The notes: generated by a model from the letters alone, not told the origin. DNA of 64,000 bases from Gemmatimonadota bacterium (GCA_963666735.1 OY762926.1:1888001-1952000); one strand, 5' to 3'; shown: positions 20,318-45,645, numbered from the stretch's first letter. Numbers and translations: made by a program.

Positions 20318-22444
20318 ATGACGACGAACGAGACCTGGTGGCCGAACCAGCTGAGCTTGAAGGCCCTTCGGCGGAACTCTCCCGCCTCGGACCCGATGGG
20401 CGCGGACTTCGACTACGCGGAGGCGTTCAAGAACGTCGACGTCGAGGAACTGAAACAGGACATCGAGCGGGTGATGACGACCTCGCAGGACTGGTGGCCG
20501 GCGGACTACGGCCACTACGGGCCGCTCTTCATCCGCATGACGTGGCACGCCGCGGGCACCTACCGCATCACCGACGGCCGCGGCGGCGGCGGGTCGGGCG
20601 ACCAGCGCTTCGCGCCGCTCAACAGCTGGCCCGACAACGGGAACCTGGACAAGGCGCGCCGCCTGCTGTGGCCGGTCAAGCAGAAGTACGGCCGCAACCT
20701 GTCGTGGGCCGACCTCATCATCTTCGCCGGCAACTGCGCCCTGGAGTCGATGGGGTTCCGGACGTTCGGGTTCGCCTTCGGGCGCCCGGACGTGTGGGAG
20801 GCGGACGAGACGGACTGGGGCTCCGAGACCGAGTGGCTCGCGGACGAACGCCATGACGAGGACGGCGAACTCCAGGAAGGGCTCGGCGCCGACCACATGG
20901 GTCTGATCTACGTGAACCCGGAAGGGCCGGGCGGCAAGCCGGATCCGGCGGCGGCCGCGAAGTTCATTCGCACGACCTTCGCCCGCATGGCGATGAACGA
21001 CGAGGAAACCGTCGCGCTCATCGCCGGCGGCCACACCTTCGGCAAGGCGCACGGCGCCGGCCCGGAGTCCCACGTCGGCACCGAGCCGGAGGGCGCCGGT
21101 CTCGAGGAGCAGGGCTTCGGGTGGCGGAGCAGCCACGGCAGCGGCAAGGCCGGCGACACGATCACGAGCGGCCTGGAAGGCGCCTGGACCACCGAGCCCA
21201 CGCAGTGGGACAACAACTTCATGGAGAACCTGCACGACCACGAGTGGGAGCTGACGAAGAGCCCTGCCGGGAAGTCGCAGTACACACCGGTCAACGCTTC
21301 CGAGGTCACCACCGTGCCGGACGCGCACGACCCCTCGAAGAAGCACGCCCCCATGATGCTCACGACGGACCTCTCCCTTCGCGAGGATCCGGTCTACGCG
21401 CCGATCTCCAAGCGCTTCCTCGAGAACCCGGCGGACCTCGCGGACGCCTTCGCCAAGGCGTGGTTCAAGCTGCTCCACCGCGACATGGGGCCGCGCAGCC
21501 GGTACCTCGGACCGCTGGTCCCCGCGGAGCCGCAGTTATGGCAGGATCCGGTGCCCGGCGTCGACCACGAGTTGATCGATGAACAGGACGTCGCGGACCT
21601 CAAGGCCAGGGTCCTCGCCTCGGGCCTGTCCGTGTCCCGGCTGGTCTCGACCGCGTGGGCGTCGGCGTCGTCGTTCCGGGGCACCGACAAGCGGGGGGGC
21701 GCGAACGGAGCCCGCATCCGCCTCGCCCCGCAGAAGGACTGGGAGGCGAACGACCCGGCCGAACTTGCGGAGGCGCTGCGGACGCTGGAGCGGATTCAGG
21801 CGGAGTTCAACGACGCGCAGAGCGGCGGAAAGCGGATCTCGCTCGCCGACCTCATCGTCCTCGCCGGGTGCGCGGGCGTCGAGCAGGCCGCGCGCGCTGC
21901 CGGGCACGACGTGCAGGTGCCGTTCGCGCCGGGGCGGACGGATGCATCGGAGGAGTGGACGGACGCGGAGTCTTTCGCCGTGCTCGAACCCGCCGCGGAC
22001 GGGTTCCGCAACTACGCGAAGGCCGGAAACAACGGCTCGGCGGCCGAGCGTCTCGTGGAGCGGGCCTGCCTGCTCACGCTGACCGCGCCCGAGTTGACGG
22101 CGCTCGTCGGCGGCATGCGCGTCCTCGACGCGAACACCGGGCAGTCCAAGCACGGCGTGTTCACGGACCGGCCGGGCGCGCTGACGAACGACTTCTTCGC
22201 GAACCTGCTCGACATGAGCACGGAGTGGCGGGCGGCCTCCGATGGCGCCTTCGAGGGCCGGGACGCGGCCTCCGGGGACGCCAGGTGGACCGCCACGGAG
22301 GCGGACCTCGTTTTCGGTTCGAACTCCGAACTCCGAGCGCTCGCGGAGGTCTACGCCTGCGACGACGGGCAGGAGGCATTCGTGCACGACTTCGTCGCCG
22401 CCTGGAACAAGGTGATGAACCTCGACCGCTACGATCTGACCTGA
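20318..22444 (+). CDS. katG: Catalase-peroxidase
   Basis: [52 protein letters not shown]. Confidence 0.97.
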
Positions 22445-22458
22445 GCGCAGGCCAGACG

Positions 22459-22497
22459 ACGTGGTGCGCTACGGCTCGATGTCGTAGCGCACCACGT
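22459..22497. repeat. 15-bp inverted repeat at katG / propeller convergence, recurring at cassette junctions
   Basis: ACGTGGTGCGCTACG-9 nt-CGTAGCGCACCACGT; related copies near 25939, 29256/31613, 42151 (half) and 45489. Confidence 0.85.
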
Positions 22498-23656
22498 ACG
22501 GGATGTCGAGCGCGTCCTTCTCCACGACCCAGATCTCGGCTTGGTTCGCAGACTCGACCACCGAGGAGGCGGAGAGCCGGACGCGGCCGATTCCCGCCCC
22601 TGACGCATCCAGGACAAACCACCATCTTTGGCCCTCATCATTGGGGCCGGCGAGCCATGTCGTTCCGTCACTGCCCGCCGTGAGATGCGTCACCGGTGGA
22701 AAATACTGGCGACGTTCGTAGAACTCCCGCAGGGCACCGGCGAAGGCCCGCCGGTCGACGATGCCGCCGCCGCCCGCCGCACCATAGATCTCGTTTTCGA
22801 AGAAGCCACTCGGGATCTGACGCGGCTCGTAGGCAAAGCGGCGATGAAACAACGTGTCGCCCCGAACATCGATTTTCGCGACCTCGAACTCGGCGGGGCC
22901 CCTGCCGAGCCAACTCTTCCGTCTGACGAGTACGGCCCCCGATCCATCGGGCGCGAAGGATATCATGTCGTCGTCCGGAAGCGGATGGGTCACGAAATCC
23001 CATGTGTCGCGCGGTAGTCCAGCCGTAATCTCGGCAGTCTGCCCCGCCACCGACCGCAGCGTCAAGGTGTCAAGCGTGGCGATGTCGGCATCGGAAACAA
23101 CCACCGGCGTCTCCGTGATGCCGCCCCGGGTGAGGCCCACTACGGACAGGACTTCGGATCCCGCCAGGCGACCGTCGGCCAGAACGGCCCTTGGCGCAAT
23201 TCTATCAATGTAATAGGTATCGGGAACGTCGACCCGGTACGGTATCGTCTCGGCCGCGCCGGTCTCCACATCTATTAATGTGAACCGCAAATTTCTGAAA
23301 TCGGCTACCCAGAGCCGCGACTCGTACCAGCCCATCGACGACGGCGAGACGAACTCGCCCGGTCCCTGGCCCCGGCCCCCGAAATCTCGGACGAAGTCAC
23401 CATCGCGCGTGAAGGCCCTGACTACTCCATCCTGAGACAGCAGCACGTACACACGATCCGAGTCCGCCAACACATCACGAACGACGGACAAGCCGTATCT
23501 CGGGTCGTCCGCGCTGCCAATCCCGACAACGCTCGTGAGCGACCACTCACGGATTCCATCGAGCGCTTGTCCAGAAAGTCGAGCGGAGCCACTCGCAACC
23601 GCTGCTGCCCAAAAGAGGACTTGGATTGCGTGCGAACTGCGTCTTTTCATCCGCAC
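22469..23656 (-). CDS. Secreted beta-propeller-like protein (module A1)
   Basis: Signal peptide, NHL-like G-GQGPGEF motif, C-terminal DALDIPYVVRYDIEP; paralogous to 31613 and 33606 genes. Confidence 0.75.
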   Translation of the reverse strand: MRMKRRSSHAIQVLFWAAAVASGSARLSGQALDGIREWSLTSVVGIGSADDPRYGLSVVRDVLADSDRVYVLLSQDGVVRAFTRDGDFVRDFGGRGQGPGEFVSPSSMGWYESRLWVADFRNLRFTLIDVETGAAETIPYRVDVPDTYYIDRIAPRAVLADGRLAGSEVLSVVGLTRGGITETPVVVSDADIATLDTLTLRSVAGQTAEITAGLPRDTWDFVTHPLPDDDMISFAPDGSGAVLVRRKSWLGRGPAEFEVAKIDVRGDTLFHRRFAYEPRQIPSGFFENEIYGAAGGGGIVDRRAFAGALREFYERRQYFPPVTHLTAGSDGTTWLAGPNDEGQRWWFVLDASGAGIGRVRLSASSVVESANQAEIWVVEKDALDIPYVVRYDIEP

Positions 23657-23659
23657 GCC

Positions 23660-44204: not shown

Positions 44205-44301
44205 CCGCCTGCGATGAAACCGGGTTTCTCCTCGGGCTCAAACTGTATTCCCCAGCGAGGTTACGGCAACGGCTATAGTGTATCGGTTTTGCTCAAATCG
44301 A

Positions 44302-45093
44302 CTACTCTTGGTCGAAAGTGAATACTCCGACCGATTCTGCAGGCAGGATCGGTCGGACATGTTCCGCCGTGAACGCCGCGAAGAGTGGGTCCGGGGCCAT
44401 CCGCTCAAGCTCCCCGAGCGGGCAGCCCGGCCATGCGCGCACCCTTCGGGCCAAGGTTGCCCGGTGTATCTCCGTGCGGTGTAGCACGCGCTTCCAGCCT
44501 AAACCCGACCGGCGAAGCTCATGCACCCTGAGAACCGATAGAGCGCGGAGGAAAGCGCTCAGCGTGGTCGCACCGTCTGCTCGCGTTCCGAACTGCCGGA
44601 ACAGCGTGACGGGTGCGCAGCCCACGTCCCGGGCCAGTTCCCGCACGTTGCGAACCGGTCGGTCGGCCGCCTGCCGCGCCGCATGAACGAGGGCCTTCTG
44701 GAGAGAGGAAGGCAACGACGTGCGTTCGAACGATTCCGCCAGGCTCCACAGGCCCCAAGTCGCACGCAAGGCGTCGAGCCGGGGTCGGAGACGGGTCCGG
44801 CGTTCGGTGAACCAGACCACTGCCGCCACACGCACGCGAAGCAGTTTCCGGGCCAACTCGGGGTCGGGATTCGTCACGAGCACCACCGGCACCCACGGCC
44901 GGTCACGCTCGAACCTCGCCAACAGGCGGACCTGCTCGGGCCGAACCCGGCCATGGCAAGCGACCACCACCGCCTCAACCTTACCGTCGAGAGTGGCGAG
45001 CGCTTCGGTCGCGTCCGCCACACGGGCGCCGGGGCCCGCGGCTCGGCCTACGTCCCGGGCTGTCTGGAGCGTGTCCGCGACCACAAGGATCAT
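44302..45093 (-). CDS. Receiver-like/AraC-type HTH regulator, copy 2 (full length)
   Basis: Two HTH-like segments (VRELARDVGCAPVTLFRQF; WKRVLHRTEIHRATLARR). Confidence 0.62.
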   Translation of the reverse strand: MILVVADTLQTARDVGRAAGPGARVADATEALATLDGKVEAVVVACHGRVRPEQVRLLARFERDRPWVPVVLVTNPDPELARKLLRVRVAAVVWFTERRTRLRPRLDALRATWGLWSLAESFERTSLPSSLQKALVHAARQAADRPVRNVRELARDVGCAPVTLFRQFGTRADGATTLSAFLRALSVLRVHELRRSGLGWKRVLHRTEIHRATLARRVRAWPGCPLGELERMAPDPLFAAFTAEHVRPILPAESVGVFTFDQE

Positions 45094-45215
45094 GTTGGCT
45101 TCTTCCGAACGGGGTGGTTTTTCCCATGTTCTCGCATGCCGCTTGTATCGCACCGAATGACGAGCGACTGGAACGAAGGGTTTCCGAGGTCGGAAGACAG
45201 GGGTGGGCCTTGGCC

Positions 45216-45471
45216 ACGGACGCGGAGTCGTTCGCAGTGCTCGAGCCCGCCGCCGAGATGACGGCGCCTTCGAAAGCCCGGATACGGTCTCCGGGGACGT
45301 CAGGTGGTCGGCCACCGAGGTGGACCTGGTGTTCGGTTCGAACTCCGGACTCCGAGGCCTGGCCTCGCGGAGGTGTACGCGTGCGGCGACGGCCAGGCGG
45401 CGGCGTTCGTGCGCGACTTCGCCGCCGCCTGGAAGGAGGTGATGAATCTCGACCGTTACGACCTGGCCTGA
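45216..45471 (+). pseudogene. katG: Degenerate katG 3' fragment (copy 5)
   Basis: [13 protein letters not shown] joined across an internal deletion to DGAFE...[10 protein letters not shown]...[14 protein letters not shown], with frameshifts. Confidence 0.85.
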
Positions 45472-45645
45472 CCGTAGAGCAGCCGACATGGTGCGCTACG
45501 GTACGATCTCGTAGCGCAGAAACCGGGGCAACTCCACCTTGCTTCCTGTACGCCGCCGGGGGGCTGAACCTTACATCCGTCTTCCGGCTCTTGCGATCCG
45601 CCGCACCCGGGGTGCGGTCTCGTTTCCGGAGTACCGTTCCCGCGG

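What the first reader, a model, noticed from the sequence alone, without database searches (positions are those of the whole stretch)
22426..45645. Integrase-free cassette stack in which each layer begins with a copy of the katG 3' end
Seen: katG stop-region sequence occurs five times in direct orientation (ending 22444, 25922, 29241, 42135, 45471). The four extra copies range from ~18 to 745 nt. Each is followed by a propeller 3' end or its stub, then different minus-strand cargo. The copies at 25.3 and 41.4 kb share variants absent from intact katG (QSAH vs QSKH, FFVN vs FFAN, CGDGQAA vs CDDGQEA), so they are not fresh duplicates of the resident allele. No recombinase other than IS transposases is present. 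Inference: alleles of this locus from related strains are repeatedly added using katG as a homology anchor, building an archive of effector/receptor cassettes.
Basis: partly seen in the sequence, partly recalled or inferred. Interest (0 to 1): 0.8.

Follow-up and report, generated by a model that had tools for sequence, protein, structure and literature searches.

The report
Cassettes stacked on stranded gene tails
In a sponge-dwelling bacterium, blocks of predicted surface-protein genes from several lineages are piled up between two housekeeping genes and bounded by stranded copies of those genes' ends, likely because incoming DNA closes into a circle and recombines in through the gene end it carries, with no integrase involved.

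Summary
The five direct copies of the katG 3' end are real. The genome is a sponge-associated Ca. Palauibacter. Independent strains bridge the first junction and carry the layers of 22.5-40.9 kb at even depth; the junction at 41390 was not bridged directly. The polarity is partly reversed: the stranded tails are mostly native, and the intact katG has a foreign last ~150 nt. Among 22 relatives the katG-pnp slot is empty in 5 and holds stranded tails with other breakpoints in 6. About 15 other-type loci in this genome look alike; three checked are empty in the sister species. Variable breakpoints exclude a fixed att site. Best explanation: donor fragments (gene tail plus cargo) circularise and integrate by a single crossover; Ku/LigD, ComEC and DprA are encoded. 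The cargo is propeller / Cys-rich mini-protein / thioredoxin-like modules of unknown function. Known ingredients in an unusually deep natural example. This scan noted similar stacks on other DNA.

The parts
20318..22444 (+). Intact katG (catalase-peroxidase, 708 aa); mosaic, with a foreign last ~150 nt (from ~22297)
   Evidence: Pfam peroxidase; breakpoint permutation p 0.002-0.003 and segment trees
22459..22496 (.). Hairpin formed by the last codons of the cassette-A propeller and the spacer; belongs to cassette A, not to katG
   Evidence: z -5.25; seen where cassette A adjoins katG, absent from the 5 empty sites
22469..25367 (-). Layer 1, cassette A1: propeller 22469-23656, Cys-rich signal-peptide mini-protein 23660-24133, propeller-like gene 24130-25215, upstream region; incoming allele
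   Evidence: best relatives only 69-73%; bridged to copy 2 by X12 contig 22504-25603
25368..25922 (+). katG copy 2 (21891 to stop); odd-one-out at 21978-21997, native-type after 22027
26014..28984 (-). Native layer: propellers 26014-27204 and 27201-28340, a mini-protein gene broken by a ~145-nt deletion, a frameshifted thioredoxin-like gene, then a propeller fragment (28969-29200)
   Evidence: about 97-98% to G017 in most 200-nt bins
29218..29270 (+). katG copy 3: stop stub, spacer and left hairpin arm
29271..31611 (+). IS481 (target duplication GCTAGG) with a nested IS3-family element at 29382-30688
   Evidence: the nested IS3 is skipped by contigs of all 4 runs laid
31613..33433 (-). Cassette A2: propeller 31613-32878, Cys-rich mini-protein 32818-33279, 3' fragment of the propeller-like gene
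33591..39400 (-). Cassette A3: hairpin remnant, propeller 33606-34778, mini-protein split by IS3 (34991-36296), propeller-like gene 36558-37448 interrupted upstream by an IS3-family element (37418-39014)
   Evidence: both IS absent from X12 and X4 contigs
39281..40795 (.). Native layer continued: putative regulator 39281-39991 (-) and small coiled-coil membrane gene 40427-40795 (+)
   Evidence: 93-98% to G017; translations; no NCBIfam hit
40855..41390 (-). Stranded pnp 3' tail (536 nt), native type; fused to katG copy 4 over one shared base
   Evidence: Pfam PNP_UDP_1; 9 differences to G017 against 18 for the intact pnp
41390..42172 (+). katG copy 4 (21699 to stop, open frame) plus half hairpin
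42215..45093 (-). Incoming layer: propeller 42215-43474, Cys-rich mini-protein 43326-43583, CxxC thioredoxin-like gene 43608-44204, putative regulator 44302-45093; intact, 77% allele of the module that is broken in the native layer
45216..45518 (+). katG copy 5, decayed (two colinear pieces, indels), plus propeller stub
45646..46488 (-). Intact pnp (purine nucleoside phosphorylase), right-hand anchor
   Evidence: Pfam; synteny in relatives

Best explanation
The katG-pnp interval is a variable cassette slot in Ca. Palauibacter that here holds several alleles in tandem, likely added when a donor fragment carrying a gene tail plus cargo closed into a circle and integrated by one homologous crossover in that tail. 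Shown: the layers come from different lineages, the tails are natural alleles with variable 5' ends, and the stranded tails are mostly native. Inferred steps: (1) chromosomal DNA of a related strain enters, probably by competence (ComEC and DprA are encoded); (2) its randomly broken ends are joined, possibly by Ku/LigD, which would give the pnp|katG fusion with one shared base; (3) a RecA-type single crossover in katG or pnp rebuilds the intact gene with the donor's tail and strands the resident tail beyond the cargo; (4) deletions and IS insertions erode older layers. Because each layer is bounded by direct repeats, it could loop out and re-enter elsewhere by the same route.
For: Variable 5' ends, so no fixed att core: -745, -555/-572, -485, about -24 here; -171 (G002), -69 (G020), -28 (G026), about -15 (G029). 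pnp|katG fusions with three different breakpoints in G000, G002, G029; the G000 one is in none of 35 other genus genomes.

Natural alleles: differences fall on third codon positions (24 of 35 for copy 4, 19 of 31 for copy 2, 14 of 19 for pnp). Both bases occur in relatives' working genes at 11 of 18, 10 of 13, 14 of 17 and 13 of 19 sites, against 17-19% expected at random.

Single-crossover signature: copy 2 is the odd sequence before ~22010 (4 vs 1) and the intact gene after it (22 vs 3), Fisher p 0.006 with a post hoc breakpoint. The amidohydrolase tail shows a similar switch; the opdB stranded tail matches G017 at 5 of 5 sites.

Circular permutation: in G035 (L020) a decayed katG tail plus cassette A sits at another locus, and its far end carries the katG piece that normally precedes the tail, overlapping it by a 37-nt direct repeat (score 67 against shuffle maximum 41).

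Genome-wide: partial gene copies within 30 kb are 37 direct vs 5 inverted, against 106 vs 109 at longer range. Three loci checked have single-copy empty sites in G017 with 147, 136 and 120 nt overlaps. Ku, four-domain LigD, ComEC and DprA are present.

Laboratory precedent (PMC3240628, passages): 56 of 60 E. coli recombinants carried a partial anchor duplication (109-950 bp in 14 sequenced), attributed to re-circularisation plus single crossover, whereas HFIR generally deletes resident DNA.
Against: No circle, transformation event or enzyme dependence was observed; the genus is described as uncultured (PMC10469786, passages). The crossover signature rests on few sites and drops to p 0.07 without the foreign last 154 nt; the SDR tail has only 2 informative sites. 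For the copy-4 layer the data cannot tell a single crossover from a linear event anchored further into pnp. Many tails are colinear pieces with internal deletions (copy 5, opdB, P450/SDR), so present junctions may be later deletion scars. The 41390 junction was not among the pieces shown (587 not shown) and was not found in the JGI collection. The L020 case is single, decayed, near a contig end, and its target site is unexplained. Presence of Ku/LigD and ComEC does not show that they act here.
Confidence: 0.52

Rival explanations
1. Homology-facilitated illegitimate recombination of linear DNA: one end recombines in katG or pnp, and the other is joined illegitimately at a point inside the resident gene, so the old tail is kept.
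For: Same geometry proposed for V. cholerae T6SS immunity arrays (PMC5361080, passages). About 10 nt of imperfect microhomology at the G002 junction. Stranded tails are mostly native.
Against: HFIR generally deletes about as much resident DNA as it inserts and leaves 3-10 bp microhomology (PMC3240628); here resident DNA is kept and the 41390 junction shares one base. It predicts a purely resident stranded tail, whereas copy 2 is the odd one in its 5' part. It does not predict the permuted katG ends in L020.
Confidence: 0.2
2. Duplicate, then replace: a microhomology-mediated tandem duplication of katG-tail..pnp-tail arises in one chromosome, and ordinary double-crossover allele exchange later replaces cargo and anchor sequence in one copy.
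For: A 3,276-bp codY+/codY::trim duplication lacking flanking repeats arose on transformation of S. pneumoniae (PMC3784515, passages). Allele replacement at this slot is evident. The foreign last 150 nt of katG with a conspecific-type middle part needs at least two steps. A 4,348-nt 100% inverted duplication lies just upstream.
Against: No identical tandem copy of any cargo survives in the stack (cargo pairs 64-87%). At opdB, SDR and amidohydrolase the sister species has no cargo to duplicate, only an empty site.
Confidence: 0.17
3. Site-specific tandem accretion by a tyrosine recombinase acting in trans at the katG 3' end, as for phage, ICE, IME or CIME elements.
For: Polarity (new tail in the gene, old tail stranded) is the same as for att-site integration (established knowledge, recalled). 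Eight tyrosine recombinases in the genome, one beside a MobC/NikA gene.
Against: Tail starts vary from about -15 to -745; pnp tails vary as well; about 15 unrelated loci behave alike. No recombinase in the stack, no serine resolvase (0 of 1 genome), no integron integrase over cut-off (best 89.6 of 265 bits).
Confidence: 0.06
4. Strain-chimeric misassembly.
Against: An X12 contig with 6 differences bridges 25368 by over 230 nt; X1 and X10 reach 25397. Unique layers have even depth within each run (X1 7.3-9.6, X10 15.2-19.1, X12 263-308). An X10 contig of about double depth over the pnp tail ends at about 41391, as a real fork would give (inferred from table 3). Like junctions occur in other species.
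Confidence: 0.05

Closest known systems
Re-circularised donor plus single crossover (Campbell-type) giving partial anchor duplication; PMC3240628 (passages read)
   Same: Partial duplication of the homologous anchor with variable length (109-950 bp there; about 24-746 nt here), no site-specific recombinase.
   Different: There a laboratory plasmid during E. coli conjugation, one event; here natural chromosomal alleles, repeated, two anchors, across a genus.
V. cholerae T6SS effector-immunity arrays, with Rhs/CDI orphan strings; PMC5361080 (passages read)
   Same: Successive anchor-proximal additions shift older genes downstream; variable breakpoints; no integrase; HFIR proposed.
   Different: There the anchor is the toxin system's own gene, the old effector is displaced and immunity kept; here the anchors are unrelated housekeeping genes, whole old alleles are kept, and no toxin or immunity function is evident.
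Minimal mobile elements of Neisseria; PMC1797815 (passages read; the original MME paper not seen)
   Same: Alternative cassettes, or none, between the same conserved genes; no mobility genes.
   Different: MMEs are alternatives at a site (replacement by double crossover, recalled); here alleles are added in tandem with duplicated gene ends.
Transformation-induced merodiploids in S. pneumoniae; PMC3784515 (passages read)
   Same: Heteroallelic tandem duplication, one case of 3,276 bp without flanking repeats.
   Different: Mostly transient, IS-bounded, 100-900 kb; here small, fixed, multi-layered.
Tandem accretion of ICE/IME/CIME and e14 at icd (recalled; named in earlier scan notes)
   Same: Incoming DNA supplies a new 3' end and strands the old one.
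   Different: Those need an integrase and a fixed att core; neither is found here.

Membership tests
Minimal mobile element | Different cassettes or none between the same two conserved genes | tested here: met
   22 relatives with both anchors: 5 empty (52-73 nt), 17 with 0.55-15.6 kb cargo
Minimal mobile element | No mobility genes in the cassette | tested here: met
   Only IS transposases, three of them absent in other strains
Minimal mobile element | Exchange by replacement, flanking genes stay single-copy (recalled) | tested here: not met
   Four extra katG tails and one pnp tail here; remnants in 6 of 22 relatives
HFIR product | Homology at one end, illegitimate join at the other | tested here: inconclusive
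   Geometry fits, but a circle plus single crossover gives the same map
HFIR product | Deletion of resident DNA of similar size | tested here: not met
   Resident allele retained; G017 empty sites overlap by 120-147 nt with nothing lost
HFIR product | 3-10 bp microhomology at the join | tested here: inconclusive
   1 nt at 41390; about 10 nt imperfect in G002; donor side unknown for copy 2
HFIR product | RecA dependence | not testable with these tools
   Needs genetics
Site-specific accretion (ICE/IME/CIME, prophage) | Constant att core at the boundaries | tested here: not met
   Tail starts range from about -15 to -745 nt
Site-specific accretion (ICE/IME/CIME, prophage) | Cognate integrase in or beside the element | tested here: not met
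   None in 22.4-45.6 kb; 8 tyrosine recombinases elsewhere, action in trans not excluded
Integron / CALIN | Integron integrase in the genome | tested here: not met
   TIGR02249 best 89.6 bits against cut-off 265; genome 94% complete
Integron / CALIN | attC sites between cassettes | tested here: inconclusive
   The 20 largest repeat families shown hold no inter-cassette repeat apart from the katG tail and hairpin; no attC model was run
Rhs/CDI/Maf/T6SS orphan array | Repeat derives from the toxin or effector gene and heads alternative C-termini with immunity genes | tested here: not met
   Repeats are catalase and nucleoside phosphorylase tails; cargo is on the strand opposite katG and has no toxin or immunity hit

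The most novel reading that the evidence does not exclude
Palauibacter runs a genus-wide, integrase-free accretion system in which the mobile unit is a circle made of a housekeeping-gene tail plus a propeller / Cys-rich mini-protein / thioredoxin-like module. Once a layer is bounded by two tails it can loop out, pass to neighbours in the sponge and pop back in by general recombination alone, so any gene end beside a variable slot becomes a self-renewing attachment site.
Probability: 0.25. Interest if true: 0.75.

Novelty: new variant of a known kind. Interest (0 to 1): 0.52.

Why it matters
Additive gene gain without integrases is mostly known from laboratory constructs or argued from toxin arrays. 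Here each event leaves an allele-typable tail, so donor, resident and crossover point can be read from sequence, at several loci and in several species. That makes a standing question testable in natural genomes: whether such gains go through circles and single crossovers or through HFIR, and whether bacterial end joining contributes to gene transfer. It may also explain how the roughly 90 propeller genes of this symbiont are shuffled. Such stacks are also likely to break short-read assemblies.

Tried and rejected
Exact search for the 41390 junction in JGI metagenome contigs: 0 hits. The collection gave only 2 close pnp loci, so this is weak. The junction is in 0 of 35 other genus genomes.

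Idea that the hairpin is a genome-wide mobile motif: the 12-mer arms occur 11 times in the genome, 4 of them at this locus and the rest apparently inside IS-like coding repeats. Rejected; it is the 3' end of cassette A.

tRNA anchor: the only tRNA is at 52058, outside the stack.

Cargo function: Pfam and NCBIfam gave only weak propeller hits (E 1e-5 to 1e-2, mostly below cut-off). The Atlas gave NHL/6-bladed propeller look-alikes for 24130-25215 (0.92) and unnamed clusters with minor thioredoxin-family leads for 43608-44204. No structure or complex prediction was run.

Genus versus outgroup density of local direct partial gene copies, one pipeline: G000 15 loci in 3.98 Mb; three other genus genomes 5 loci in 1.2 Mb; two order-level relatives 1 locus (a repeat array) in 0.8 Mb. 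Suggestive only, too few for a test; the 400-kb stretches were chosen by hand and a third outgroup is missing.

The PBP1A repeat at 1.87-1.88 Mb belongs to an inverted duplication, not to this pattern, but it was not removed from the counts. Some other counted loci may be paralogue remnants; only 3 were verified against an empty site. A fourth (L027) was unclear. The opdB tail duplication was found in 0 of 35 other genus genomes.

Literature: nine searches found no description of this locus or habit in Palauibacter. The Palauibacterales paper (PMC10469786, passages) has 0 occurrences of propeller, transformation, competence or genomic island in its main text. The two 2002 HFIR papers are not held and are known only as cited. 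No supplements were read; subscription journals are not covered.
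Full report
Setting. The window lies in a single-contig 3.98-Mb genome, 94% complete. Its closest pnp relatives are titled Ca. Palauibacter, Gemmatimonadota, and the runs with a readable habitat label that hold most of the stretch are sponge metagenomes. katG (20318-22444, +) and pnp (45646-46488, -) converge across 23.2 kb.

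Observation. The five katG stop regions and the shared variants are as described. The map therefore reads katG - cargo - pnp tail | katG tail - cargo - pnp, with further katG tails inside.

Is it real? Contigs of four runs from four studies were laid on 22300-42290. X12 bridges the copy-2 junction (22504-25603, 6 differences); X1 and X10 reach 25397 and may be the source or close to it. Unique layers have even depth in each run, which argues against a mixture of strains, although contig depth is not a copy number. Three IS elements are missing in X12 and X4, so they are younger than the stack. The 41390 junction was not among the pieces shown; the indirect sign is an X10 contig of about double depth that ends at about 41391.

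Relatives. Of 61 genomes searched, 40 matched the katG tail query at the loose threshold. I fetched 19 katG loci and added 4, one of which lacked katG. Among these 22 the interval is empty in 5, carries cargo with a stranded katG or pnp piece in 6 (G002, G020, G026, G029, G033, L054; the last two share one remnant), and carries cargo with no detected remnant in 11. G002 and G029 have pnp|katG fusions with their own breakpoints. The G026 and G020 katG remnants are short (22-25 nt cores) but are followed by the expected propeller end.

Who is native? Against the sister species G017, the cargo from copy 2 to the pnp tail is about 97-98% identical where shared, like the backbone, and the pnp tail is closer to G017 than the intact pnp (9 vs 18 differences). 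The 42.2-45.1 kb cargo is a 77% allele of the same module. In katG 21891-22290 the intact gene and copies 2 and 4 form one clade (support 0.999); in 22291-22444 copies 2 and 4 group with G017 (0.90), copy 5 and G014 join them (0.93), and the intact gene groups with other species (0.83). So a native allele sits in the middle, with additions on both sides and inside. Differences between copies are biased to third codon positions and are mostly bases seen in relatives' working genes, so the copies come from functioning alleles.

Cargo. Six propeller genes, two more propeller-like genes, Cys-rich mini-proteins with signal-like N-termini, CxxC thioredoxin-like genes and a putative regulator. A profile finds 90 propeller ORFs in 54 clusters in the genome. 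An earlier scan note describes the same trio as an undescribed envelope module; I confirmed its presence, not its function. In the native layer the mini-protein and thioredoxin-like genes are broken, and intact alleles lie in the incoming layer. This fits either rescue or decay after redundancy, not simply an archive.

Not special to katG. Partial copies of core-like genes within 30 kb of their source are 37 direct to 5 inverted, against 106 to 109 further away (hits, not independent loci, 8 of them from this locus). A stricter tile-wise count gives 15 direct loci, this one included. At opdB, an SDR gene and an amidohydrolase gene, G017 has the empty site and G000 has 1.7-4.3 kb of cargo bracketed by 120-147 nt of duplicated gene end; two of the cargos include a propeller. 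G026 has its own insert and remnant at the amidohydrolase site.

Mechanism. Tail starts vary over 700 nt, which excludes a fixed att core; there is no serine resolvase and no integron integrase. Ku, LigD, ComEC and DprA are encoded. HFIR generally deletes resident DNA, whereas a trimmed donor that re-circularises and integrates by one crossover duplicates part of the anchor (PMC3240628, passages). That model predicts a stranded tail that is donor-type 5' of the crossover and resident-type 3' of it. Copy 2 shows this switch between 21997 and 22027 (p 0.006 post hoc; 0.07 without the last 154 nt), the amidohydrolase tail shows a similar one, and opdB is compatible. In G035 a katG tail plus cassette A lies at an unrelated locus with the upstream katG piece at its far end, a circular permutation. 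I put the broad claim (general recombination through gene ends, no dedicated integrase) at about 0.85 and the circle route at about 0.5. HFIR and duplicate-then-replace remain open, later deletions may have reshaped the junctions, and different layers may have used different routes. Uptake by competence and end joining by Ku/LigD are inferred from gene presence only.

Comparison. It works like the Campbell products of PMC3240628 and like the T6SS arrays of PMC5361080, at a slot that behaves like a minimal mobile element (PMC1797815). It fails the membership tests for integrons, att-site accretion and toxin orphan arrays. Nine searches found no account of it in this genus. Earlier notes of this scan report similar gene-end stacks in other genomes, so the architecture is not unique; those notes are unchecked.

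Verdict. New variant of a known kind; interest 0.52.

Noticed in passing
G000:C1:1874910-1879257 and 1883896-1888243 (reaches window 1-243): A 4,348-nt inverted duplication at 100% identity inside a region of paralogous PBP1A and thymidine phosphorylase genes; a recent event or an assembly artefact.
   Followed up: no
L020:645-3893 (G035): Decayed katG tail plus cassette A at a locus near carB, bracketed by a 37-nt imperfect katG-derived direct repeat in permuted order.
   Followed up: partly
window 22459-22496: Hairpin whose one arm codes for the propeller's last residues and whose other, non-coding arm is kept across species; perhaps a terminator or RNA end protector between convergent genes.
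   Followed up: partly
window 29271-31611: An IS481 inserted into that hairpin; the IS3 nested in it is skipped by contigs of all four runs laid.
   Followed up: partly
window 25250-25300 and L020:3745-3800: Both cassette A copies end shortly beyond a poly-C tract and a promoter-like motif before meeting katG sequence, as if trimmed to the promoter.
   Followed up: no
G000:C1:958672, 3321640, 264638: Three DprA-family genes over the Pfam cut-off; two lie in accessory-looking contexts (KAP NTPase; helicase and a Fic-like C-terminal domain).
   Followed up: partly
window 19841-20150: Small ORF just upstream of katG that looks like a HigA-type antitoxin (recalled likeness; no NCBIfam hit at E 0.02).
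   Followed up: no
window 40427-40795: Small membrane-anchored coiled-coil protein with internal repeats, found in the slot of several relatives.
   Followed up: no
L049: A contig titled Gammaproteobacteria carries the Palauibacter-type katG-pnp-nupC order at about 90% pnp identity; probably mis-binned.
   Followed up: no
G026:C1:1081934-1092478 (L222): A cluster of several direct partial gene copies (82-778 nt, 85-91%) that may be another multi-layer stack.
   Followed up: no
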